A DNA stretch of 64,000 nt from Candidatus Pacearchaeota archaeon (GCA_018303945.1 JAGVXD010000001.1:2877-66876), one strand, 5' to 3'; shown: positions 690 through 12,110, counted from the first letter of the stretch. Numbers and translations: made by a program. Notes: a model not told the origin generated them from the letters alone.

Positions 690-2030
690 ATGACAACAAA
701 AACAAAACAAGAAGTTGAAGAAATCATAAGGAAATATGAATCTATGATTCCTGCAATATATGAAGCAGGAGCATTTCCTGAAGATTTTAAGCTTCAACCA
801 AGTGACTGGGCATTAAAAGAAGAAGTTGTACAAAGACCAGCTTTAGAAACGCTAGTTGGAGGAAAGCAAACTTCAATCAGACCTATCTCAACTATGGACT
901 TAGAATTCTTATCAAACTCTACAGTCCAAAAAGCAAAGAATGGAGAAGTAAATCTTGTAAATAATTATCCTTGTGGACTTAAGTGTCCAGGATGTTTCTC
1001 TCAAGAAGGAGTATATGGAGATAAATCAAATTTGATGACATGGCAAGAAGTTATGGGAGTAGTTGATGATGCAAGAACAATCGGGTTGCAAGGTACTAAA
1101 TTCTTAGGTCCTGGAGAATTATTTCAGAATCCTGACCTTTTTGATATTCTTGATGCATTTGAAGAGAGAGGGTTACCGATAAGTATCTTTACCAAAGGAG
1201 CTGAATTAGGTAATGATGAATTGGCAATAAGGAATTATGGTCATCTTGGAGTAAAATCTGCTAAAGAGCTAGTAGAAAAAGTATCTCAATACGATTGTGT
1301 AAGAATATTGCTTGGCTTCAATTCATTATTCTCAGATAGGCAGGATAAAATGGTTGGTTCATCCACAATGACAAGAGACTATCAGGTTAATAATGGTACT
1401 TTCACAAACAGAGGAGTCTCAAATTACACTGAAAAAAGAAATCTAGCACTAGTTAATTTAGTTGAAGCTGGTTTCAACGATCCAAGTAAAGGACAGAGAT
1501 TATCATTAATAGCAGCACCAGTTGGTCTTGAGCAGATTGACGAGATTCCAACAATGTACTTATGGGCTGCAAAAAGAAATATTCCTTTGGTGATAGCTCC
1601 AACCATGGAGTCTGGACCAAAATCTATTGGATTAAGTGCTCAAAATAAAAGAATTGACCCTAATCATGAAATGCTAGTTCAGTTGATGACTGAAGTTTAT
1701 GATACAGCCATACAAAATGGAGTTATGAGCTTAGAACAGATGAGAAGAGAAGAGGTTTCAGCTTACATGGGAACATCCCCATGCAATCAAGTTGCAAACG
1801 GATTATTCTTAAGGCTAAATGGAAGAATTCAGATGTGCCCTGGAAGAAGCGATTCAACAGCAATATATGGGAATACTCATGAAACACCATTAGCAGAAAT
1901 ATGGGAAAATAGTCCAAATTACAGATTAGGAGCTAGAACAAATAACTGGTGCACGGCAAAGACAGAAGGAATGCCTAAGAATGTTCAAAGAGAGGTACTC
2001 AAGATACTTGAGGAAAAATATGGAAAGTAA
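690..2030 (+). CDS. Radical SAM enzyme with ~90-aa N-terminal extension and SPASM/twitch-like C-terminal domain
   Basis: CxxxCxxC at C95/C99/C102 (NYPCGLKCPGCF), glycine-rich GPGELF motif, C-terminal cysteines (SPCNQVANG...QMCPGRS...NWCTAK) and a GNTHETPLAEIWENSP motif typical of SPASM C-termini. RBS-like aaaggaaaaa precedes the ATG. Confidence 0.7.
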   Translation: MTTKTKQEVEEIIRKYESMIPAIYEAGAFPEDFKLQPSDWALKEEVVQRPALETLVGGKQTSIRPISTMDLEFLSNSTVQKAKNGEVNLVNNYPCGLKCPGCFSQEGVYGDKSNLMTWQEVMGVVDDARTIGLQGTKFLGPGELFQNPDLFDILDAFEERGLPISIFTKGAELGNDELAIRNYGHLGVKSAKELVEKVSQYDCVRILLGFNSLFSDRQDKMVGSSTMTRDYQVNNGTFTNRGVSNYTEKRNLALVNLVEAGFNDPSKGQRLSLIAAPVGLEQIDEIPTMYLWAAKRNIPLVIAPTMESGPKSIGLSAQNKRIDPNHEMLVQLMTEVYDTAIQNGVMSLEQMRREEVSAYMGTSPCNQVANGLFLRLNGRIQMCPGRSDSTAIYGNTHETPLAEIWENSPNYRLGARTNNWCTAKTEGMPKNVQREVLKILEEKYGK

Positions 2031-2457
2031 ACAATCTCTTGAAATTCTCATTGGTGACGATATGTTTTTGATGCCTGTTGATGCAATGATGGCACAAAAT
2101 CAATACTTAGAACCATTAAAAGAAAGAATTCCAGGATATGATGTTCGATTGTCATATGCTTCAACTCCAGAGGAAATGTTGACTGAAGCTTCAAGAGGAA
2201 CATATGATGTAATTATATCTGACTTAGATTATGGCACAACTGGAAGAATGGGAACTGAAGGGTTTGATGTGTGTAATGGAGTCAATAAAATGAATCTCTC
2301 AAAGAAGCCTTTCCTTGTCTTGTGTACATCAAGAGATGATGTTCAGAAGCAAATTAAGAAACTTCTTTATGAAGGTAAAATAGGTGCAGTAGTAACTCCT
2401 AAAAGTAAACATAAGTTTAATGCTTTAGCAGAATTTCTTGAAGAAAAGTATATTTAA
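2020..2457 (+). CDS. Stand-alone CheY-like receiver (REC) domain protein
   Basis: LEILIGDD (acidic pair), YDVIISDLDY (phospho-acceptor Asp), LVLCTS (Thr/Ser), GAVVTPKSK (conserved Lys). The track start at 1981 lies inside the upstream ORF; ATG at 2020 with aggaaaaa upstream is the more plausible start. It overlaps the rSAM stop by 11 nt. Confidence 0.55.
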   Translation: MESKQSLEILIGDDMFLMPVDAMMAQNQYLEPLKERIPGYDVRLSYASTPEEMLTEASRGTYDVIISDLDYGTTGRMGTEGFDVCNGVNKMNLSKKPFLVLCTSRDDVQKQIKKLLYEGKIGAVVTPKSKHKFNALAEFLEEKYI

Positions 2458-2581
2458 ATATAATATCTTTATAATTATATTATGGGTTGTTCAAATTGTT
2501 TTTCTAATAGAAATTTTTGTTCTACCCATAAGTGAATCTGTTTTAGTTCCTTTACAGTTGTATGTGTTGTTAAGGGCAAAT

Positions 2582-2589
2582 TTTAAATA
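2582..2589 (+). promoter_or_regulatory. TATA-box-like element (tttaaata) ~25 nt upstream of the methyltransferase ATG; likely promoter of the R-M/pAgo operon (leaderless or short leader)
   Basis: A/T-rich 153-bp spacer 2458-2610; tttaaata is centred ~25 bp before the ATG at 2611. Confidence 0.3.
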
Positions 2590-2610: not shown

Positions 2611-3678
2611 ATGAAAAAAGAGCTAAACGTCGTTGACTTATTTTGTGGTGCTGGAGGGTTGAGTTTTGGATTTGCAAAGGCAGGTTTTAACATAATTTTG
2701 GGAGTTGATAATGATAAAGATTCTAAAGAGACTTTCTTAAAAAATCATCCAGACTCTCAATACTTACTAAAAGATATTCGGTCAGTCTCAAAAGATGAAA
2801 TTTTAAGCTTAATTGGTGATAAAAAAATTGACCTTTTGATTGGTGGACCACCTTGTCAAGGATTCAGTGTATCTGGAAAAAGAGTTTACATGGATTCAAG
2901 AAATTCTCTCTATCTTGAGTTTTTCAGAATTTTAGATATTTTAAAACCAAACCACGCTCTTATTGAAAATGTGCCAGGTCTAAAAGGTCTTTTTGAAGGA
3001 AGGGCTTTAAAAAGTATTCTTGAAGAATTTTCAAAGAGAGGTTACAAAACAAACCATTCTATTTTAAAAGCAGATGAATATGGAGTCCCTCAAGTTAGAA
3101 AAAGAATAATCATAGTAGCCTCAAAAAAAGGAGAATTTGAATTTCCATTGCCATTAAGTACACAGGTCACTTTGGGTGATGCTATAAACGACCTACCTAT
3201 TTTAGAAGACTCAATTGAAGAAGACCAGTATATTTCTAAACCTAAAAATGAATATCAAAATTTGATGCGAATTAATTCCAATAAAATTCACAATCATATC
3301 GCAAGTAATCATTCAGACAGAACTAAGTCAATAATAGGTCTTGTTCCAGAAGGTGGAAATTACAAAAATCTTCCAAAAGAGCTTAGAAATACAAGAAAAG
3401 TTCATATTGCCTGGACAAGATTGAATAGTTCAAAGCCATCTCTTACCATAGATACAGGTCATAGACATCATTTTCACCCTTGGGCAAATAGAATCCCAAC
3501 TGTAAGAGAATCTGCAAGAATACAATCGTTTCCCGATAACTTTATATTTTATGGTAGCAAGACCTCTCAGTATAGGCAGGTTGGGAATGCAGTTCCCCCA
3601 TTACTTGCGGAGGCTATTGCACAACAACTAAAAAAGTGGATAAACGATGAAAACAAAAAAGATATACAAAACGCCTGA
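2611..3678 (+). CDS. DNA (cytosine-5)-methyltransferase (m5C MTase) 1
   Basis: Motif I FCGAGG, motif IV GGPPCQGFS, motif VI ENVPGL, motif X QVGNAVPP. Confidence 0.9.
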   Translation: MKKELNVVDLFCGAGGLSFGFAKAGFNIILGVDNDKDSKETFLKNHPDSQYLLKDIRSVSKDEILSLIGDKKIDLLIGGPPCQGFSVSGKRVYMDSRNSLYLEFFRILDILKPNHALIENVPGLKGLFEGRALKSILEEFSKRGYKTNHSILKADEYGVPQVRKRIIIVASKKGEFEFPLPLSTQVTLGDAINDLPILEDSIEEDQYISKPKNEYQNLMRINSNKIHNHIASNHSDRTKSIIGLVPEGGNYKNLPKELRNTRKVHIAWTRLNSSKPSLTIDTGHRHHFHPWANRIPTVRESARIQSFPDNFIFYGSKTSQYRQVGNAVPPLLAEAIAQQLKKWINDENKKDIQNA

Positions 3679-5080
3679 TAATTATTATTTCAGATTGCAT
3701 CATATCAGACCTAGATTTAAGAATGATATAGAAAGAATATTACTTATGGTAAGTTCTGCTGTTGCTGAAATGCCCATACAACAAAAAGAACAATTTGATA
3801 AATCACTTAATAAGATAATCAAAGGATTTCCAGGAAATGTTGTAAGAACGGATAAGACTATAAACAATTGGAGGACTGAGATTTCTGCATTATTTAGCCT
3901 TATTTTATATAACTTAGATAATGAAACAGAAGGTCCGAGCGAGATTGCAAAAAGAATGGCAAAAAATCAAGATTTAGTTGAATTTTTTAAGTTATTTTGT
4001 TATTCGTTTCAATATCCTGGAGGACACTTGAAATCTCAAGAAACTAAAAAACTTATTGAGCGAGGAATAAAGTTTAAACCTGCCCATTATATCTTAAAAC
4101 TTCTCTATCAAGCTAACAAGGGAGTAGAAACGCCATTTGGAATTAACAAAGCTGAAGTAACACACTGTATTTTTAATGATACTAGAGTTACTGTAGAGAA
4201 TAAAGACGTAAAAGAAACAATTGATTTAATTAAATCAAACCGAGAACAAGGCTTTGACTATGATTGGAAAGGTGATGTAATACGTTATGCAGGTGATATT
4301 ATGGATTATTTATACTATGCAAATCTCTTAAAAAAGCATGGAGCAAATTATTATTTAAATCCTGTTGAAATGGGAGCAATAATCACATTTGTGGAAAAAG
4401 ACCCGTGGTTCAATTTATACGACAAATTTTATGGAAAAAGTGTTACAAATGAAGAATTGAGAGAAGCTCAAAACAAATGGTTTTACTACGTTTCAAATTT
4501 ATCTGTAAAAGCAAACTTTGAAACAGATGTACTTGCATTCATGGGAATAGATAAAAACAATTATCTGGAAATAGAAAAGAAAGCCACAGCTATTGCAATT
4601 ACTGAATTTAAGAATAAAATAACCGATAAGATACTTAAAACCAAAGAAATAGGAGATGCAGGGGAAAATCTTGCGATAGGTCATGAATGTATGAGGCTAA
4701 AAAACGGTGGTAGAGAAGACCTTATAGGTAAGGTAGTATATCTTCCTAATTATTTGAAGATGGGATATGATATAAGGTCATTTGAATTGGATTCCGACTT
4801 GCGACTTATTGAAGTAAAAACCACTATCAGCAATACAGATATAGATTTTAAATCATTCCATATGACTGAAAACGAATGGAATATTGCGTCAAGTATGGGA
4901 GAAAAGTATTATGTTTATAGAATGGTAATAAGCAGGTCATCTGTAAAACTATTTATAATAAGGAATCCTGTTAATAAGTATAAGAGTGGCATCCTAGACG
5001 TTACTCTTTCAAATGGAGCTCAGGTGAACTTTGATAAAAGGGCAGGTAAATACGAAAAAATTTTAATATGGCAAAAATAA
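3647..5080 (+). CDS. Putative restriction endonuclease; C-terminal DUF3883-like PD-(D/E)xK domain, N-terminal ~330 aa uncharacterised
   Basis: C-terminal GYDIRSFELDSDLRLIEVKTT...FHMTENEWNIA...YYVYRMV matches the DUF3883 / restriction-endonuclease-like pattern. It is flanked by two m5C MTase genes with overlapping ORFs. The true start may be downstream of 3647 (overlap of 32 nt). Confidence 0.55.
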   Translation: MKTKKIYKTPDNYYFRLHHIRPRFKNDIERILLMVSSAVAEMPIQQKEQFDKSLNKIIKGFPGNVVRTDKTINNWRTEISALFSLILYNLDNETEGPSEIAKRMAKNQDLVEFFKLFCYSFQYPGGHLKSQETKKLIERGIKFKPAHYILKLLYQANKGVETPFGINKAEVTHCIFNDTRVTVENKDVKETIDLIKSNREQGFDYDWKGDVIRYAGDIMDYLYYANLLKKHGANYYLNPVEMGAIITFVEKDPWFNLYDKFYGKSVTNEELREAQNKWFYYVSNLSVKANFETDVLAFMGIDKNNYLEIEKKATAIAITEFKNKITDKILKTKEIGDAGENLAIGHECMRLKNGGREDLIGKVVYLPNYLKMGYDIRSFELDSDLRLIEVKTTISNTDIDFKSFHMTENEWNIASSMGEKYYVYRMVISRSSVKLFIIRNPVNKYKSGILDVTLSNGAQVNFDKRAGKYEKILIWQK

Positions 5081-6117
5081 AAATAGCATCGTTATTCTGT
5101 GGATGCGGTGGAACCGAGTTAGGGATAATCGGAGGTTTCAATTTTTTAGGTAAGAAATATTTTAGACACAACACCGAAATCGTATTCGCAAATGATATAG
5201 AAAAGAGTGCTTGTGAAATATACAATGCTAATTTTGAACATGAAAGTGTATGTGCAGATATAAAGAAGATATCTTCTATTGACATACCAGACCATGATGT
5301 TCTTATAGGAGGATTTCCGTGTCAATCTTTTTCAATAGTTGCTCAAAATCCACCAAGACTTGGATTCAAATCTGAAAATGGCAGACTTTTTCTAGAGATG
5401 GTTCGTATTCTTAAAGACAAAAGACCCAAAGCATTTATTGCTGAAAACGTAAGAGGGCTTATTTCAGCAAATAACGGCAAGGCTTTTCCTCTAATTTTAA
5501 AAGAATTTGAAAAGGCAGGTTACAGAGTAGACTATAAACTCGTAGATGCGTCAGGGTTTGGTGTGCCTCAGCGTAGACAGAGAGTTGTAATAATAGGTTA
5601 TAGAAATGACCTAAATATCAGCCCTTCCTTTCCTGAGCCATCAAATAATAATCCTGTTCCTCTAAAGAAAGTAATCTTTGACCATAAAGATGTTGATGAA
5701 AGATATTATTTTAGTGAAAGAGCAATTGAGGGATTACAAAAATCCAATAAATCAATGAACAAAGGTAGATCACAGAATATTGAAGAGCCTTGTGCTACAG
5801 TTACTTCACACCTTGCCAAAGTTAGTTTAAACAGCACAGACCCTGTATTAAAAATAGGTGAAAAATACAGAAGATTTACCCCTAGAGAAGTAGCAAGAAT
5901 ACAATCTTTTCCTGAGTCTTTCAAACTGATAGGGAGCGATTTTCAAAAGTATAAGGCATTAGGAAACGCAATACCTCCTGTATTGTTCTGGCATATAATG
6001 AAAGAAGTAAGTGAAAAGTTATTAGAATTAAAAGAGAGTAATTTAGTAGCTCCTAATATGACTGAACTTTTAACAATAATTACCGCGGACAAAAGTACCC
6101 CTTTATTAAATTGTTAA
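5068..6117 (+). CDS. DNA (cytosine-5)-methyltransferase (m5C MTase) 2
   Basis: FCGCGG, GGFPCQSFS, ENVRGL, QRRQRVVIIG, LGNAIPP. Overlaps the upstream ORF by 13 nt. Confidence 0.9.
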   Translation: MAKIKIASLFCGCGGTELGIIGGFNFLGKKYFRHNTEIVFANDIEKSACEIYNANFEHESVCADIKKISSIDIPDHDVLIGGFPCQSFSIVAQNPPRLGFKSENGRLFLEMVRILKDKRPKAFIAENVRGLISANNGKAFPLILKEFEKAGYRVDYKLVDASGFGVPQRRQRVVIIGYRNDLNISPSFPEPSNNNPVPLKKVIFDHKDVDERYYFSERAIEGLQKSNKSMNKGRSQNIEEPCATVTSHLAKVSLNSTDPVLKIGEKYRRFTPREVARIQSFPESFKLIGSDFQKYKALGNAIPPVLFWHIMKEVSEKLLELKESNLVAPNMTELLTIITADKSTPLLNC

Positions 6118-6129
6118 AGAGAAGATGAA

Positions 6130-6786
6130 ATGACAGCATTTAAACTATCACCATCAACACTAAACCTATTAAAAGAATGTCCAAGATGCTTCTGGCTGTC
6201 TGAACATGAGGTGTGGAGTAGACCAAATGGTATTTTTCCTTCATTGCCTTCAGGAATGGATGGGATTTTAAAAAAACATTTTGATAAGTTTATGGAAAAA
6301 GGTAAACTTCCTCCAGAATTATGTAGTAAATCTGAATGTGAAAATCTTAAACTATTTGATAATAAGGATTTATTGAAAGAATGGAGAAACTCACGAAAAG
6401 GTTTATGGTTTGAAGATAAAGAAGGAAATATACTTCATGGAGGGATAGATAACTTGATGGTAAATAAAGTAAATAATAAACTAATTGTTTTAGATTACAA
6501 AACAAGAGGTTTCCCATTAAAAGATGATACTCATGAACACTATCAAGACCAACTTAATATCTATGCTTGGTTACTTGAGAAATTAGGACACAAAGTAGAA
6601 GACCATGCTTATTTGTTATTCTATCATCCAAAAGAAGTTTTAGAAACTGGAGAGGTTGTTTTTAATACGGATTTGAAAAAGATGAAAATTACACCAGAAC
6701 ATGCAGAGAAACTATTCAACAAAGCAATAAAGATGTTAGGTGAAGACTGTCCTAAACAAACATGTGTATGGTGTGAAAAAGTATAG
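6130..6786 (+). CDS. Cas4-like / RecB-family PD-(D/E)xK nuclease with 4-Cys Fe-S cluster ligands (DUF83-like), stand-alone
   Basis: N-terminal CPRCFW, motif II HGGIDNLMV, motif III LIVLDYKTRG, QxxxY (QDQLNIYAWLL), C-terminal CPKQTCVWC. Confidence 0.7.
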   Translation: MTAFKLSPSTLNLLKECPRCFWLSEHEVWSRPNGIFPSLPSGMDGILKKHFDKFMEKGKLPPELCSKSECENLKLFDNKDLLKEWRNSRKGLWFEDKEGNILHGGIDNLMVNKVNNKLIVLDYKTRGFPLKDDTHEHYQDQLNIYAWLLEKLGHKVEDHAYLLFYHPKEVLETGEVVFNTDLKKMKITPEHAEKLFNKAIKMLGEDCPKQTCVWCEKV

Positions 6787-6826
6787 ATAGTAAATTCTTT
6801 ATAGTGGCTTTTAGTCAATTTTTAGT

Positions 6827-8212
6827 ATGGCTATAACAAACTATGAGGGAGAAAGAGAGGCAACAGTTCATGATTCTAGTAGCTACGGCAAGAAAATAAT
6901 TGAATTTATGGAGTTGAGAGATTATTCTTTAGTAAAAGACTCTGATACAGATGGTATCTTTCAAGATAAGGTCTTTAGAAGACCAAATTTTGATGGTGAA
7001 AAAGAGACTTATGTTGAAATAAAATATACGAATTTAAGTTTATCTGATAAAGACTTCTTGGCAGGGTTTGGGAAATACTTTATTATGTATATGGAAAGCT
7101 CAACCAAATTTTATTTTAAGTTATTTGCTAGAAATCTTAAAAACTTTACAAAATGGAAATCGATATTTGATGATGTTTCCAATAAATATGATGAAGTTAA
7201 AAAGTTTAGAACAAGTATCAAAGAATCTTTATCTGAAGATTTGAAAAATAAGTTTAATTCTTTTGAAATGAGAGATTTCAAAGCGTTTGTGGGACAAATT
7301 GAAATAATAAAGATAGGGTATGAGAAATTAATCCAAAAGATTACAGACTTAAAAGAAAATAAAAAATTTAACAAAAACGAGAATTATCTAACAGAAAAAC
7401 AAAAATTAGTCTATCAAAAAGAGAAAATATTTAGCAATCTTGTTAAAGTTGGGACTTTACCAAAGATATATGTTTATAATCTAAGTCAAGGTCTTGAGCC
7501 AACATTCTGGAATTCTAAAGATATCAATAAGTTTATTACATATAAAGAAAAAGCTATATCAATAAATCCCTTACCAAACGATATAATTAAGAAGTATTGT
7601 CTAGGAAATACACCAGAATATAAAGATATAGACAATATGGGTCTAGATGATGAAGAAAGACTAAATTTGAGAAAAAGGGTTACAGAACTATTTATAATTT
7701 CTAAGGGAGAAAACACTAATTATACTTTTAATAGAAACTTCAATTGTCTTTACGTAATATATGAAAAAGTCACCAGTTCTCCCTTAAAAATGAAGGGTAA
7801 AGAAGGACATAAGAGGAGAATGGTAGCTAGACCATATTTTAAAGATAAGAAACTAAATTTTGTTACTCATAGAGCTTTAAAGTTTAGAGTTACTGATTTT
7901 GATGGAGAGTTATTTATAATTTTTAACTTCTTTAGACTTTTTACAAAAGATGGTAGAGAAATTATAGAAGGTGAAAGTGCAAAAAGATTAAATTATGGTT
8001 TTAGACCAACTAATAGTTCAAATCTACAAGAGCATAGTGTCTTGGACTTTCTTATTACACTTTTAGATTTGAAAACAAAAACTCTAAATCATCAGAATTT
8101 CATAGCAACTAAATCCTTAGAGTTAGAATCTCCTTGTAAGGCATCTGAAATAGAATTATTTGATGAATCACCAAACTATGAACTAATGGATGAATCGGAG
8201 GATGAAGAATGA
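6827..8212 (+). CDS. Short-pAgo partner protein: N-terminal PD-(D/E)xK-like (Mrr/DREN-like) nuclease motif plus ~330-aa region inferred to be APAZ
   Basis: N-terminal EFMEL...DSDTDGIF...ETYVEIKYT (E-x-D-x21-ExK). 461 aa. Its stop overlaps the pAgo start (ATGA at 8209-8212). APAZ is inferred from gene context and was not confirmed. Confidence 0.45.
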   Translation: MAITNYEGEREATVHDSSSYGKKIIEFMELRDYSLVKDSDTDGIFQDKVFRRPNFDGEKETYVEIKYTNLSLSDKDFLAGFGKYFIMYMESSTKFYFKLFARNLKNFTKWKSIFDDVSNKYDEVKKFRTSIKESLSEDLKNKFNSFEMRDFKAFVGQIEIIKIGYEKLIQKITDLKENKKFNKNENYLTEKQKLVYQKEKIFSNLVKVGTLPKIYVYNLSQGLEPTFWNSKDINKFITYKEKAISINPLPNDIIKKYCLGNTPEYKDIDNMGLDDEERLNLRKRVTELFIISKGENTNYTFNRNFNCLYVIYEKVTSSPLKMKGKEGHKRRMVARPYFKDKKLNFVTHRALKFRVTDFDGELFIIFNFFRLFTKDGREIIEGESAKRLNYGFRPTNSSNLQEHSVLDFLITLLDLKTKTLNHQNFIATKSLELESPCKASEIELFDESPNYELMDESEDEE

Positions 8213-9618
8213 GTAAAGATTTTGAAGTTATTTATATCCCCGAACCACAACTTCTTTTTAATAAAAACAAACAGGCATATAATCCTTGTGTAGGCTTAAT
8301 AAAACATGGTCCTAGATTTTCTGGAAACAAAGAAGTAGATTACAAGGAGTTTAGAATAGGTATTATTGGTTCTGATAAAAGTATTTCTCAGGCTAAGGAT
8401 TTATTTGAACAGTTTCAATTTAAGATATCTCCTAAAAAAGAGGTAAAACCATGGAGAATTCCATTCCCTGGACTAAATAAAGAATCTCCATTAAATTTCT
8501 CTTTTGTCTTTAACCCAGAATGGGAGGGAGAGATAACTTCTAATGAAATGGTTTATTTAAAAGATAAAAGTAAGGGGAAAGAAAGAAATGAGGAGCTACT
8601 TAGTATAATTAAGGATAGAATGAAAAAAATATATCATAGCGAAAGCCCACCAGACATGATTTTAATAAGTATCCCCGAAGAATTATTTACTATTTTTAGT
8701 ACTTCTGGGTCAGATAAACCAAATATTAAATTAGATGATGATGATTTTCATAACCGAATTAAAATTCTAGCTATGGAATTAAAAATGCCAACACAACTAA
8801 TAAGACCTGAAACACTAAAACAAGATAAGACACAAGAACTTTTCTTGATTGCTTGGAATTTGGTAGTTGGAATCTTATATAAATGTCAAAGAGGACATCC
8901 TTGGAAATTAACTTATTTAGAAGAAGATACTTGTTACGTAGGAATATCATTTTTTAGAGAAAAGACAAAGAAAACAATAAGAGCTAGCCTTGCACAAATA
9001 TTCTTAGATACTGGTGAGAGTTTTGTTCTTAGAGGAGATTCATTTAAGTGGGTTAATAAAAAAAATCCAAACAGCCCACATTTATCAAAGGAGAGTTCAA
9101 AAGATATAATTGAATTGGTATTAAAACACTACAAAAGTGTTAGAAAAGGCAAGAATCCAACCAGGTTAGTTATCCATAAAAGCTCAGGATATTGGGAAGA
9201 AGAATTGGAAGGTTTTATTGAAGCATCTAAAGAAATTAAAAAGAGAGATTTTGTTACAATTTTAGATTCCGATGTGAAATTTTTTACTTCTAACAAATAC
9301 CCCGTTTTAAGAGGGACTTTGATAACAAACAAAGATACTAATTTTCTTTATACAACTGGCTTTGTTCCTACACTAGGAACTTATCCAGGGATAACTACTC
9401 CAAGACCTCTATCGATTAAATCTTATAACTTAGACTCGGATATAAAGAAGGTTTGTGAGGAGATATTATCTTTTACCAAATTAGATTGGAATAACACCTT
9501 TGTTTATAGTAAATTCCCTGTAACAATATCTGTTTCAAGAAAAGTAGGGAATATTATGGCTGAGACTGTAGCTCAAAATATTGAAGAATTAGACCCCCAT
9601 TATTTCTATTATATGTAG
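8209..9618 (+). CDS. Short prokaryotic Argonaute (MID-PIWI), catalytically degenerate PIWI
   Basis: PIWI-like blocks CYVGISFF (in place of GxDVxH), PTRLVIHKSSG (in place of iiYRDG), DFVTILDSDVKFF, GTLITNKDTNFLYTTGFVPTLGTYPGITTPRPLSI (matches the GTvvD...FyL...GTsrPthY block). The catalytic D positions appear to be S/S/T. 469 aa. Confidence 0.75.
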   Translation: MSKDFEVIYIPEPQLLFNKNKQAYNPCVGLIKHGPRFSGNKEVDYKEFRIGIIGSDKSISQAKDLFEQFQFKISPKKEVKPWRIPFPGLNKESPLNFSFVFNPEWEGEITSNEMVYLKDKSKGKERNEELLSIIKDRMKKIYHSESPPDMILISIPEELFTIFSTSGSDKPNIKLDDDDFHNRIKILAMELKMPTQLIRPETLKQDKTQELFLIAWNLVVGILYKCQRGHPWKLTYLEEDTCYVGISFFREKTKKTIRASLAQIFLDTGESFVLRGDSFKWVNKKNPNSPHLSKESSKDIIELVLKHYKSVRKGKNPTRLVIHKSSGYWEEELEGFIEASKEIKKRDFVTILDSDVKFFTSNKYPVLRGTLITNKDTNFLYTTGFVPTLGTYPGITTPRPLSIKSYNLDSDIKKVCEEILSFTKLDWNNTFVYSKFPVTISVSRKVGNIMAETVAQNIEELDPHYFYYM

Positions 9619-9854: not shown

Positions 9855-10679
9855 TTATTTTACACCTCTAATAATCTTTTTTACAAAACTCATTGAAATA
9901 GAATCGCCTGTATCATTAAATTTGACTGCTTTCTTTTCTTCATCAGACAATGTTGACCTAAGATATTCGTTCCATGCTTGAAGTTTTGATTCATCTCCTA
10001 GAAAGTCGCTTTCAAGAAGGTTTTTGGTTGTATAATTAAATATTCCATCATAAACAATTTCAATATCTCTAAATCCTGCTTCTTTTAATTGCTTGAATAT
10101 ATCTGTTTCATGGGAAAAATGTCTATTTTCAACAAAACTATCAAAACCTGCTAATTCGTCTTTCTTTTTCACTAATTCTCTAAAGCAACGGCTCAGTTCT
10201 GGTGTTTGACCAAAAGATTCCCAAATATATATTTCACCATGTTCTTTCAAGGCATTATAGGCATTTTGAATAATTCTCGGTTGGTCATTCTTTGGTACTT
10301 CATGTAAACCCATTTTAATAACTGCCTTGTCAAGAATATTTTCAAGGGATAGACATCTAGCATCTTCTACTCTCTTTTGGACTGCGTATCCTTGAAGTTC
10401 ATATGGAGCAAGATACGAAGTAGATTTGTTTATTTGCTCTTCATATGCATCAGTCAAAATAACTCGGACATAGAGATTGTTTTTAGAGCAATAGTCTAAT
10501 ACCTTTCTAGATACCGCACCATACCCAGACATAATATCGCCCATAGTCATTCCGTTTTTCAGATTCATTGACTCTATCAATTTATCAAAGGCTTCATCCT
10601 CGTTTCCATGAGCTTTGCTAAAGTCAACATTTCTTTGATTCCATCCTTGATGTTTTGTCTTCTGTTCCATATTAGTCAC
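9855..10679 (-). CDS. Class I SAM-dependent methyltransferase (small-molecule/protein MTase-like)
   Basis: Glycine-rich SAM motif DIMSGYGAV followed by an acidic loop. No DNA MTase motifs. Confidence 0.45.
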   Translation of the reverse strand: MTNMEQKTKHQGWNQRNVDFSKAHGNEDEAFDKLIESMNLKNGMTMGDIMSGYGAVSRKVLDYCSKNNLYVRVILTDAYEEQINKSTSYLAPYELQGYAVQKRVEDARCLSLENILDKAVIKMGLHEVPKNDQPRIIQNAYNALKEHGEIYIWESFGQTPELSRCFRELVKKKDELAGFDSFVENRHFSHETDIFKQLKEAGFRDIEIVYDGIFNYTTKNLLESDFLGDESKLQAWNEYLRSTLSDEEKKAVKFNDTGDSISMSFVKKIIRGVK

Positions 10680-10764: not shown

Positions 10765-11469
10765 ATGGAGGATATGATACTGACAGACCTCGGCTTAACT
10801 GAAGCAGAATCCAAGATTTACTTTGCCGTACTCAAATTGAAAACTTGTACGGTTCGAGATATAACAAAGGAATGTGGTTTTCATAGAACAAACATCTATG
10901 ATATACTAGAACAATTAAGAGAAAAAGGTCTTATTTCAATACATAAAGAAGGAAAGACAACAAGGTATAGTGCATCTGACCCGAATAATCTATATGAATT
11001 ATTGAGAGAGAAAAAGGAGCTCCTGGATTCAATTTTTCCATCATTAGAGAAGTTTTACAAATCATCTTCTGATGAAATAAAAGTCGAAGTCTTCAAAGGT
11101 GATGAAGGTATGAAATCCGCATGGAGAGATATGATTCGTGAAGGAAAGCCACTTTATGGTTTCGGGATTAAAGGTCAACTAAGAGAAAAATTACCCGTGT
11201 TTGCTGAACAATGGCTAAGAGATGTGAAAAATAAGAAAATACCTTATTATGGCATTTATACAAAAAGAGGAAATCTCCCATCATATTACACACAAGTTAA
11301 ATTCGTTTCAGAGGAATTATCTAGCCCAGTTGCTACTTTTATCTATGGGGATAAGATAAATATAAACATCTGGGATCCAACACTAGTTTGCATTGTAATT
11401 AAATCAAAGCTAGTAGCTGAAATGTATAAGAAACATTTTGACTTATTATGGAAGATAGCTAAAAAGTGA
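10765..11469 (+). CDS. TrmB-family transcriptional regulator (archaeal sugar-responsive regulator family)
   Basis: N-terminal winged HTH LGLTEAESKIYFAVLKLKTCTVRDITKECGFHRTNIYDILEQLREKGLI typical of TrmB. Confidence 0.6.
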   Translation: MEDMILTDLGLTEAESKIYFAVLKLKTCTVRDITKECGFHRTNIYDILEQLREKGLISIHKEGKTTRYSASDPNNLYELLREKKELLDSIFPSLEKFYKSSSDEIKVEVFKGDEGMKSAWRDMIREGKPLYGFGIKGQLREKLPVFAEQWLRDVKNKKIPYYGIYTKRGNLPSYYTQVKFVSEELSSPVATFIYGDKININIWDPTLVCIVIKSKLVAEMYKKHFDLLWKIAKK

Positions 11470-11786: not shown

Positions 11787-11858
11787 GGCGGATGTAGTTT
11801 AACGGTAGAACAACGGACTGTGGCTCCGTAGACGAGGGTTCGACTCCCTCCTCCCGCT
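11787..11858 (+). tRNA. Putative tRNA-His (anticodon GTG) with G at -1; imperfect acceptor stem; possible pseudo-tRNA
   Basis: Anticodon arm ACGGA-CTGTGGC-TCCGT, T-arm GAGGG-TTCGACT-CCCTC, D-arm GTTT/AAGC-like. The acceptor stem GCGGATG/CTCCCGC has A-C and T-T mismatches. Confidence 0.4.
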
Positions 11859-12110
11859 CTTTATATTATGTCGGGAACCACCGCACCCTAAAGGGTGCGG
11901 TAAACGCAAGGACTTTTTGATGTTGATGAAATTGACACTTGATTACGGGAGAATTGCCTTTAGTCTGCATGGGAAAGTTCCGGCGGACATTTATTTTGCA
12001 TTCGGAAAATTATTTTAAAGGTTGTGACAAATGTCTATGTCCTGTAACATTACTTAAATCATCGCAAGCTTTTTAAACCGAGTTTTGCTTCACTCTTCGT
12101 TAATAGTACC

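What the first reader, a model, noticed from the sequence alone, without database searches (positions are those of the whole stretch)
2611..9618. Single co-directional operon fusing a two-methyltransferase R-M module, a stand-alone Cas4-like nuclease and a short-pAgo pair
Six plus-strand ORFs are packed with overlaps or gaps of at most 40 bp: 3647/3678 overlap, 5068/5080 overlap, gaps 6117-6130 and 6786-6827, and ATGA at 8209-8212. They follow a 153-bp A/T spacer with a TATA-like tttaaata about 25 nt before the first ATG. The content is m5C MTase (FCGAGG/PCQ/ENV), a DUF3883-like PD-(D/E)xK protein, a second m5C MTase, a Cas4/RecB-like 4-Cys nuclease, a PD-(D/E)xK-motif protein of 461 aa, and a PIWI-domain protein of 469 aa. 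R-M systems and short-pAgo systems are each known. I am not aware of a described architecture in which they are operonically fused with a Cas4-like nuclease, least of all in an archaeon. It could be a composite defense island whose parts cooperate. For example, methylation could mark self while the pAgo complex and nucleases act on unmethylated invaders.
Basis: partly seen in the sequence, partly recalled or inferred. Interest (0 to 1): 0.85.

Follow-up and report, generated by a model that had tools for sequence, protein, structure and literature searches.

The report
Modular archaeal defence island: R-M, Cas4-like, pAgo
A small groundwater archaeon carries three separate anti-virus modules side by side: a BpuJI-type restriction-modification system, a Cas4-like nuclease and a short Argonaute with a nuclease partner; each is a known kind, and the one fresh lead is that this Cas4-like gene habitually sits just behind restriction systems in related archaea.

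Summary
The six ORFs, their overlaps and their spacers are exactly as described. The domain calls are mostly right. The "DUF3883-like" protein is a BpuJI-family type IIS endonuclease flanked by its two m5C methylases, which is the published BpuJI layout. The 461-aa protein is a PD-(D/E)xK nuclease fused to APAZ, and the 469-aa protein is a MID-PIWI short pAgo. The "fused operon" reading is only partly supported. Among 80 loci with related pAgos, about 40 keep the partner+pAgo pair, but none outside this population has the Cas4-like gene or a BpuJI enzyme. An Acinetobacter plasmid carries the M-R-M cassette alone. The pAgo pair has its own in-register TATA box. Two pairwise links do recur. The closest pAgo relatives sit at the 3' end of type I R-M operons. 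The Cas4-like gene (over 3,500 homologues in Pace/Nanoarchaeota) has R-M genes just upstream in 13 of 30 loci but downstream in only 1 of 27, and upstream in 11 of 13 loci in its own subclade. Best reading: a modular defence island whose parts are known kinds. The R-M-to-Cas4-like linkage is the part worth following up.

The parts
2581..2589 (+). Archaeal TATA box (TTTTAAATA; the 8-mer TTTAAATA starts at -29 from the ATG). It is the candidate promoter of the R-M unit, probably giving a leaderless mRNA.
   Evidence: TATA 8-mers start at -29 in 11 of 45 window genes that have an upstream gap. M1 scores 4.35 on the PWM; 0.3% of random positions score as high.
2611..3678 (+). M1, a C5-cytosine DNA methyltransferase (355 aa).
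   Evidence: PF00145 at 9.2e-73; TIGR00675 dcm at 7e-68. Motifs FCGAGG, PCQ, ENV, QVRKR and GNAVPP are readable in the translation.
3647..5080 (+). BpuJI-family type IIS restriction endonuclease (477 aa). It has an N-terminal BpuJI-type recognition domain and a C-terminal PD-(D/E)xK domain (NOV_C/DUF3883).
   Evidence: PF11564 BpuJI_N at 5.8e-94 over the full profile; PF13020 at 1.4e-14. PDB R.BpuJI N-domain at 5e-12. PADLOC REase_II at 1.4e-25.
5068..6117 (+). M2, a second C5-cytosine DNA methyltransferase (349 aa), presumably for the other strand of an asymmetric site.
   Evidence: PF00145 at 6.1e-79. The BpuJI system is published as R flanked by two m5C MTases (PMC1874659). The same M-R-M order is found on plasmid NZ_CP156794.1.
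6130..6786 (+). Stand-alone Cas4-like (RecB-family, PDDEXK_1) nuclease (218 aa) with Fe-S cysteines. It belongs to a lineage-wide family that usually follows R-M operons.
   Evidence: PF12705 at 1.8e-11; PADLOC Cas4 at 5e-10. It scores below the NCBIfam cas4 cut-off, 30.5 against 65 bits. Invariant residues C17, C20, D107, D122, K124, Q141, Y145, C207, C212, C215. Fold neighbours are MGME1, RecE, Cas4 and lambda exonuclease. 3,587 homologues. R-M genes lie upstream in 13 of 30 loci and downstream in 1 of 27.
6798..6805 (+). TATA-like element (TTTATAGT) that starts exactly 29 nt before the ORF5 ATG. It is the candidate separate promoter of the pAgo pair.
   Evidence: PWM score 3.01; 1.8% of random positions score as high, and it falls at the 64th percentile of the window's promoter set. 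There is no SD-like sequence here, whereas relatives L006-L008 have a GGAG-type SD instead.
6827..8212 (+). Effector partner (461 aa): an N-terminal PD-(D/E)xK restriction-endonuclease-fold nuclease (D47, E64-x-K66) fused to a C-terminal APAZ domain.
8209..9618 (+). Short prokaryotic Argonaute (MID-PIWI only, 469 aa).
   Evidence: PADLOC pAgo_I at 1.2e-137; Piwi at 3e-9. The profile hits the short pAgos of SPARHA (3.5e-110), SPARDA, SPARTA and SPARSA. An H181-K185-Q196-K225 MID motif is present, and GISF/HKSS stand where active PIWI domains have catalytic Asp residues (read; the comparison to active pAgos rests on my own knowledge).

Best explanation
This is a defence island made of three separable modules that happen to be co-directional.

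(1) M1-R-M2 is a complete BpuJI-type type IIS restriction-modification system. The two m5C methylases protect the two strands of an asymmetric host site, and the endonuclease cuts unmethylated incoming DNA.

(2) The Cas4-like Fe-S nuclease belongs to a family found throughout Pace/Nanoarchaeota. In this subclade it is normally the next gene after an R-M operon of any type. I infer that it acts on the DNA ends that restriction creates, either degrading restricted invader DNA or repairing self-cuts. In that role it would stand in for the RecBCD-type end processing that these reduced genomes lack.

(3) ORF5 and ORF6 form a nuclease-APAZ/short-pAgo heterodimer that most likely works like SPARDA or SPARHA. 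The catalytically dead pAgo binds a small guide. Pairing with invader DNA then activates the PD-(D/E)xK domain of the partner for indiscriminate DNA cleavage, giving abortive infection or dormancy.

The pAgo pair probably has its own promoter. Its position behind the Cas4-like gene reflects shuffling of modules within defence islands, not an obligatory composite.

Shown here: domain identities, folds, gene order, and how the neighbourhoods are distributed. Inferred: every enzymatic activity, the transcription units, and the role of the Cas4-like protein.
For: R-M module. BpuJI_N plus NOV_C flanked by two PF00145 MTases. The same layout is published for BpuJI and is present alone on an Acinetobacter plasmid, at 36% identity over 97% of the REase.

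pAgo module. PADLOC Aga_REase_Archaea and pAgo_I. APAZ is shown by sequence and by structure. D47/E64/K66 are invariant. The partner+pAgo pair is conserved in about 40 archaeal loci that have unrelated neighbours.

Modularity. No Cas4-like or BpuJI gene lies in any of the 80 related pAgo loci. Only 1 of about 70 Cas4-like loci has a pAgo pair (L116). That pair is only 36% and 24% identical to the window's and lies on the other side of the Cas4-like gene.

Cas4-like with R-M. R-M genes lie within the four upstream genes in 13 of 30 loci, against the four downstream genes in 1 of 27 (Fisher p=5e-4). Pfam counts agree. The figure is 11 of 13 loci in the subclade at least 84% identical to the window's protein. 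Gaps of 1-3 nt with GGAG-type SD sequences are typical. The upstream R-M genes are only 22-35% identical to each other while the Cas4-like protein stays near 88%.

Separate promoter. An in-register TATA box precedes ORF5.

Precedents. SPARDA and SPARHA mechanisms. A Cas4-like domain linked to type III R-M and Dcm.
Against: No transcript data exist, so read-through from M1 to pAgo is possible. The closest pAgo relatives look operonic with type I R-M: they have an SD and no TATA box, and in L006 the genes overlap. The Cas4-like gene's own TATA-like element is weak, so at minimum it is probably co-transcribed with the R-M genes. R-M systems lie directly upstream of the pAgo pair in all four known members of its closest subclade (window, L006, L007, L008). 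That could mean more than chance. The nuclease domain of ORF5 is not DREN/DUF4365, and no member of this archaeal family has been characterised, so guide type and collateral activity are extrapolated. The R-M/Cas4-like linkage could reflect a recombination anchor rather than a shared function.
Confidence: 0.7

Rival explanations
1. Integrated composite. The six genes form one functional system. Methylation marks self, restriction cuts invaders, the Cas4-like nuclease turns the fragments into guides or substrates, and the short pAgo complex uses them to trigger its nuclease.
For: Tight co-directional packing. R-M operons lie directly upstream of the pAgo pair in its closest relatives, with overlaps or an SD, and also in L023 and L055. 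There is a second, independent pAgo/Cas4-like adjacency in L116. UvrD-Cas4-like fusions lie next to pAgo pairs in L010, L015 and L061. A Cas4-family enzyme, ACE1, is known to trim guides for long-A pAgos.
Against: The trio occurs only in this one population. About 40 related pairs lack any Cas4-like gene. The M-R-M cassette is autonomous elsewhere. Characterised nuclease-APAZ short pAgos use RNA guides, not DNA fragments. ORF5 has its own TATA box. ACE proteins partner with catalytically active long-A pAgos and are a different, longer Cas4 clade.
Confidence: 0.1
2. The Cas4-like gene is a vertically inherited housekeeping repair nuclease (a DPANN 'solo-Cas4') with no defence role. Defence cassettes accumulate beside it because the conserved gene serves as a homologous-recombination anchor or insertion hotspot.
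For: There are 3,587 homologues, the listed top 120 at 63-88% identity and confined to Pace/Nano/Woesearchaeota. Hudaiberdiev 2017 reports that most DPANN encode solo-Cas4, inherited mainly vertically. In L093/L150 the gene sits among housekeeping genes and has its own TATA box. It stays near 88% identical while the adjacent R-M genes are only 22-35% identical.
Against: Downstream flanks are not conserved either, so there is no fixed chromosomal site. R-M genes lie almost only upstream, co-directional, with 1-3 nt gaps and SD sequences, which looks like operon integration rather than random insertion. Integrases flank some of these loci, suggesting the block moves.
Confidence: 0.2

Closest known systems
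BpuJI type IIS restriction-modification system (Bacillus pumilus; Sukackaite et al. 2007, PMC1874659)
   Same: The REase has a BpuJI-type N-terminal recognition domain and a C-terminal archaeal-Holliday-junction-resolvase-like PD-(D/E)xK domain. The R gene is flanked by two m5C MTase genes.
   Different: The alignment to the BpuJI N-domain is weak (phmmer E=5e-12), so specificity is probably not CCCGT. The host is an archaeon. A Cas4-like gene follows 12 nt downstream.
SPARDA / TmuRE-Ago (DREN(DUF4365)-APAZ + short pAgo) and SPARHA (HNH-APAZ + short pAgo)
   Same: A two-gene unit with overlapping genes. The partner is an N-terminal nuclease fused to a C-terminal APAZ domain, and the pAgo is MID-PIWI only. 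These give the best sequence and structure matches.
   Different: The nuclease domain is neither DUF4365/DREN nor HNH. It has no Pfam hit, and its fold neighbours are Cap4, FokI, NucS and LmuA-type PD-(D/E)xK domains. This is a mostly archaeal clade (PADLOC 'Aga_REase_Archaea') with, as far as I found, no characterised member. Guide type, filament formation and collateral activity are untested.
Cas4-like (pfam12705) nucleases linked to R-M: UvrD-Cas4 fusions with type III R-M or Dcm (Hudaiberdiev et al. 2017, PMC5704561)
   Same: A PDDEXK_1/Cas4-like Fe-S nuclease sits next to DNA methylases and restriction genes, outside CRISPR loci.
   Different: Here the nuclease is a stand-alone 218-aa protein with no helicase. 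It follows R-M operons of several types (type I, Eco57I-like, N6_N4 MTase-based, BpuJI) in Pace/Nanoarchaeota. I found no description of this particular linkage.
APACE1 (long-A pAgo + ACE1 Cas4-family nuclease; Bobadilla Ugarte et al. 2025, PMC12094033)
   Same: A Cas4-family Fe-S nuclease is encoded beside an Argonaute.
   Different: APACE uses a catalytically active long-A pAgo and a 278-aa ACE1 that binds the pAgo. Here the pAgo is short, it already has a nuclease-APAZ partner, and the Cas4-like gene does not travel with the pair.

Membership tests
BpuJI-type type IIS R-M system | REase with a BpuJI N-terminal recognition domain and a C-terminal AHJR-like PD-(D/E)xK domain | tested here: met
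   PF11564 at 5.8e-94 (profile positions 1-278 of 278) and PF13020 at 1.4e-14. PDB 2vla/5hlt at 5e-12.
BpuJI-type type IIS R-M system | R gene flanked by two separate m5C methyltransferase genes | tested here: met
   ORFs 2611-3678 and 5068-6117 are both PF00145. The layout matches PMC1874659 and plasmid NZ_CP156794.1.
BpuJI-type type IIS R-M system | Recognition of an asymmetric site, with cleavage nearby blocked by m5C | not testable with these tools
   Needs enzymology or methylome data.
Short pAgo + nuclease-APAZ systems (SPARDA-like) | pAgo reduced to MID-PIWI (about 450-500 aa) | tested here: met
   469 aa. Full-length matches to PADLOC pAgo_I (1e-137) and to solved short pAgos.
Short pAgo + nuclease-APAZ systems (SPARDA-like) | Partner protein with an APAZ domain encoded immediately upstream | tested here: met
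Short pAgo + nuclease-APAZ systems (SPARDA-like) | Effector domain is DREN/DUF4365 (SPARDA in the strict sense) | tested here: not met
   No Pfam family hits ORF5. The PDB profile alignments cover only residues about 197-456, not the N-terminal nuclease. The N-terminal half is a different PD-(D/E)xK domain with D47/E64/K66. It works like SPARDA but is not a strict member.
Short pAgo + nuclease-APAZ systems (SPARDA-like) | PIWI catalytic tetrad lost | tested here: inconclusive
   GISF (245-248) and HKSS (323-326) stand where active PIWI domains have G-x-D and R-D-G. This was read against motifs known to me. No explicit alignment to an active pAgo was made.
Short pAgo + nuclease-APAZ systems (SPARDA-like) | Guide- and target-dependent collateral nuclease activity | not testable with these tools
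   Requires biochemistry.
Cas4 (CRISPR-associated, TIGR00372/PF01930) | Scores above the curated family threshold | tested here: not met
   TIGR00372 scores 30.5 bits against a cut-off of 65. Pfam assigns PDDEXK_1, not Cas_Cas4.
Cas4 (CRISPR-associated, TIGR00372/PF01930) | Encoded with cas1/cas2 in an adaptation module | tested here: not met
   No cas genes in the locus or its flanks.
Cas4 (CRISPR-associated, TIGR00372/PF01930) | RecB nuclease motifs plus four Fe-S cysteines | tested here: met
   Invariant C17, C207, C212, C215 (plus C20); D107; D122-x-K124; Q141...Y145. Fold neighbours include Cas4 in the Cas4-Cas1-Cas2 complex.
   Only contigs of the same population, 99.8-100% identical, share it. 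None of the other 80 pAgo loci or the roughly 70 Cas4-like loci has the trio.
   Motif analysis only. There is a strong TATA box before M1, an in-register TATA box before ORF5, and a weak one before the Cas4-like gene. No transcript data.

The most novel reading that the evidence does not exclude
In Pace/Nanoarchaeota, the stand-alone Cas4-like nuclease is a portable end-processing accessory that defence modules share. It is co-transcribed behind R-M operons of any type to destroy (or repair) restricted DNA, acting as a substitute for RecBCD. In loci like this one, it also supplies processed DNA ends that prime or enhance the neighbouring short-pAgo system. That would make R-M, Cas4-like and pAgo a cooperative layered pathway.
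Probability: 0.15. Interest if true: 0.7.

Novelty: new variant of a known kind. Interest (0 to 1): 0.4.

Why it matters
Each module is a known kind, so the locus itself does not change the picture. Two things are useful. First, it provides an intact archaeal nuclease-APAZ/short-pAgo pair whose effector domain differs from DREN and HNH, from a clade with no characterised member. Second, the survey shows a strong directional linkage between diverse R-M operons and one conserved Cas4-like nuclease in DPANN archaea. These organisms mostly lack CRISPR, and the role of their 'solo-Cas4' has been an open question since 2017. If that nuclease is an R-M accessory, it would explain why these tiny genomes keep it. 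It would also give a testable archaeal counterpart of RecBCD-assisted restriction.

Tried and rejected
- The sigma-70 promoter and intrinsic-terminator scan was uninformative: counts equalled the shuffled expectation, and the host is archaeal. I replaced it with a TATA position analysis built from the window itself.
- I looked for an island-free variant of the locus by looking up the exact TrmB protein. All contigs carry the island or end before it.
- I looked for att-like direct repeats between tRNA-His (11788-11859) and the upstream flank. None was found.
- A sequence search of the PDB with the Cas4-like profile gave nothing significant. The structure search was needed.
- NCBIfam has no model for the REase or for ORF5.
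- The word-index homologue search for ORF5 returned only 4 proteins. The exhaustive profile search was needed to see about 150 representatives.
- I considered ORF5/ORF6 as a strict SPARDA member and rejected it, because the nuclease domain is not DUF4365.
- I considered the Cas4-like gene as the ACE partner of the pAgo and rejected it as a general rule, because related pairs lack it.
- I did not test the recognition sequence or site avoidance. The alignment to the BpuJI N-domain is too weak to transfer its specificity.
Full report
**1. Observation**

The six plus-strand ORFs are at exactly the reported coordinates: 2611-3678, 3647-5080, 5068-6117, 6130-6786, 6827-8212 and 8209-9618. They have the stated overlaps and the 12-nt and 40-nt gaps. 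A 153-nt spacer precedes them, and TTTAAATA starts 29 nt before the first ATG. Public gene calls on identical contigs agree.

Those contigs come from groundwater metagenomes, including PRJNA268031. Archaeal-type neighbours lie downstream: Rpb7, Spt4, S24e, S27 and L35Ae. The nearest named homologues are Candidatus Nanoarchaeia and Pacearchaeota. The host is therefore a DPANN-type archaeon. The island is somewhat AT-richer than the rest of the window: ORF5 is 27.8% GC and ORF6 30.6%, against 36.2% elsewhere.

**2. What the genes are**

*ORFs 1 and 3* are complete C5-cytosine methyltransferases (PF00145 at 9e-73 and 6e-79).

*ORF 2* is not just "DUF3883-like". It matches the full BpuJI N-terminal recognition domain (PF11564, 5.8e-94) plus the NOV_C/DUF3883 nuclease domain. 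It also aligns to the solved R.BpuJI N-domain (5e-12). The BpuJI paper states that bpuJIR is flanked by bpuJIM1 and bpuJIM2, both m5C MTases, one for each strand of an asymmetric site (PMC1874659). ORFs 1-3 are therefore a complete BpuJI-type type IIS R-M cassette. The same MTase-REase-MTase cassette sits alone on a 9.6-kb Acinetobacter plasmid, with the REase 36% identical over 97% of its length.

*ORF 4* is a PDDEXK_1 nuclease. It has RecB motifs and invariant cysteines C17/C20 and C207/C212/C215. It scores below the curated Cas4 threshold. Its model (pLDDT 80.9) is closest to MGME1, RecE, Cas4 and lambda exonuclease, which are enzymes that process DNA ends.

*ORF 5* has no Pfam hit but matches PADLOC "Aga_REase_Archaea" (3.8e-69).
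- Residues about 200-426 align to the APAZ domains of the SPARHA and SPARDA partners (2e-24 and 3e-20).
- The AlphaFold model has pLDDT 84.5. Foldseek gives probability 1.0 to the SPARTA, SPARDA and SPARHA partner chains.
- The N-terminal half hits PD-(D/E)xK nucleases: Avs3, Cap4, FokI, LmuA, NucS and NgoMIV.
- D47, E64 and K66 are invariant in 40 homologues.

*ORF 6* is a short pAgo: PADLOC pAgo_I at 1e-137, with profile hits to the solved short pAgos.

**3. Is it one conserved composite?**

No. A genome-wide scan returned 80 loci with related pAgos. About 40 of them keep the ORF5-like partner directly upstream. A phmmer search found no Cas4-like gene and no BpuJI enzyme in any locus outside this population. 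An m5C MTase appeared in only two loci, each kilobases away.

ORF5 has about 150 cluster representatives. The Cas4-like protein has 3,587 homologues, the listed top 120 at 63-88% identity and all in Pace/Nano/Woesearchaeota. This fits the report that most DPANN archaea carry a "solo-Cas4" (PMC5704561). Among about 70 distinct Cas4-like loci, only one other has a pAgo pair (L116). That pair is only 36% and 24% identical to the window's and lies upstream of the Cas4-like gene, not downstream.

**4. Transcription units**

In this window, TATA 8-mers start at -29 in 11 of 45 genes that have an upstream gap, which implies leaderless mRNAs. I built a PWM from those genes, leaving out the three tested genes. 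The table gives each tested gene's PWM score and the share of random window positions that score at least as high.

| Gene | PWM score | Random positions scoring as high |
|---|---|---|
| M1 | 4.35 | 0.3% |
| ORF5 (TTTATAGT at -29) | 3.01 | 1.8% |
| Cas4-like | 0.15 | 21% |

R, M2 and pAgo show nothing. The closest relatives of the pair have a GGAG-type SD instead of a TATA box. The likely units here are therefore M1-R-M2-Cas4-like and ORF5-ORF6. This rests on motifs only.

**5. What does recur**

*(a) The pAgo pair and R-M.* The three closest relatives of the pair (68-78% partner identity; L006, L007, L008) sit at the 3' end of type I R-M operons (HsdM-S-R-YgjP), with an overlap or a short gap. 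L023 and L055 also have type I systems directly upstream. L014 has an Eco57I-like MTase plus a PLD-SNF2 protein.

*(b) The Cas4-like gene and R-M.* This gene is strongly and directionally linked to R-M operons.
- Among the three genes upstream, the commonest Pfam families are N6_N4_Mtase (9), ResIII (9), N6_Mtase (6), HSDR_N (4) and Eco57I (4).
- Downstream there are only 2 MTases, among helicases, housekeeping genes and integrases.
- Per locus, R-M genes lie within the four upstream genes in 13 of 30, against the four downstream genes in 1 of 27 (p=5e-4).
- In the subclade at least 84% identical to the window's protein, 11 of 13 loci are R-M-linked.
- Typical gaps are 1-3 nt with a GGAG-type SD. 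Stand-alone copies carry TTTTTATA at about -30.
- The upstream R-M genes are only 22-35% identical between loci, and the downstream genes are unrelated, while the Cas4-like protein stays near 88%.

**6. Mechanism**

The best-supported reading is a modular defence island with three layers.
- A BpuJI-type R-M system discriminates self from non-self.
- A Cas4-like end-processing nuclease is habitually appended to R-M operons in this lineage. I infer that it degrades restricted DNA or repairs self-cuts.
- An autonomous nuclease-APAZ/short-pAgo module most likely works like SPARDA, TmuRE-Ago or SPARHA: guide-dependent recognition of invader DNA switches on indiscriminate cleavage.

Full cooperation of all six genes is not excluded, but it is unlikely. 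Characterised relatives use RNA guides. About 40 related pairs work without any Cas4-like gene.

**7. Novelty**

pAgo neighbourhoods enriched in R-M genes were reported in 2009. Cas4, HsdS and type III REase orthogroups in pAgo operons were reported in 2018. A Cas4-like domain linked to type III R-M and Dcm was reported in 2017. Cas4-family/pAgo cooperation was shown in 2025.

The locus is thus a new arrangement of known kinds. Its effector domain belongs to an uncharacterised archaeal clade. I did not find the stand-alone Cas4-like/R-M linkage in DPANN described anywhere. It is the main lead, but my sample is 80 loci chosen by similarity, so it needs a full census.

Noticed in passing
window 7910-7920 (L002:9713 region): One public contig of the same population (ERZ28564412) is identical over 7.3 kb except for an 11-bp deletion (TTATTTATAAT) in ORF5. 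The deletion splits the effector into 362-aa and 99-aa pieces. It may be inactivation of a toxic nuclease, or it may be an assembly error.
   Followed up: partly
L016-L021, L025-L032, L035, L036 (about 6780-8540 in each locus): Sixteen haloarchaeal loci with the same partner+pAgo pair share a conserved divergent gene pair (about 258 and 289 aa, no Pfam hit) immediately upstream. These may be additional components of the system in Halobacteria.
   Followed up: partly
L007:1323-2387 and L008:2473-3537: An unknown 354-aa protein with no Pfam family lies between the type I R-M YgjP-like gene and the pAgo pair, in the two closest relatives only.
   Followed up: partly
L116:5089-8651: A divergent partner+short-pAgo pair lies directly upstream of a Cas4-like gene that is 87% identical to the window's. 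This is an independent pAgo/Cas4-like adjacency in the opposite order.
   Followed up: yes
L010:5600-8329, L061:6600-8501, L015:2937-4991: UvrD-helicase proteins lie next to short-pAgo pairs in several archaeal MAGs. The L010 protein has a PDDEXK_1/Cas4 domain, and the other two are its homologues by phmmer. This echoes the known UvrD-Cas4 defence association.
   Followed up: partly
window, genome-wide (e.g. 10736, 20756, 26020): The TATA box has a strikingly fixed position (8-mer starting at -29 from the ATG) in 11 of 45 genes with upstream gaps. This indicates predominantly leaderless transcripts in this organism.
   Followed up: yes
window 690-2457: A radical-SAM/SPASM protein (446 aa, weak Pfam hits; weak PADLOC pVip hit at E=0.002) and an overlapping 158-aa ORF lie directly upstream of the R-M cassette. 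Whether they belong to the island is unknown.
   Followed up: no
window 9855-10679 (-) and 10765-11469 (+): A class I SAM methyltransferase (PADLOC mad2, 1.4e-8) and a TrmB-family regulator (weak mad1, Csa3 and CasR hits) flank the 3' end of the island. The hits may be generic domain matches.
   Followed up: no
window 11788-11859; L001:1-313: tRNA-His lies 2.2 kb downstream of the pAgo gene. A serine recombinase (Resolvase) gene lies about 4.1 kb upstream of M1, outside the window. No att-like repeat was found.
   Followed up: partly
L089:8655-12396, L117:3907-5061: Tyrosine integrase genes lie a few kilobases downstream of the Cas4-like gene in L089 and L117 (an R-M operon is seen upstream only in L089). 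This suggests these blocks sit on or next to integrative elements.
   Followed up: no
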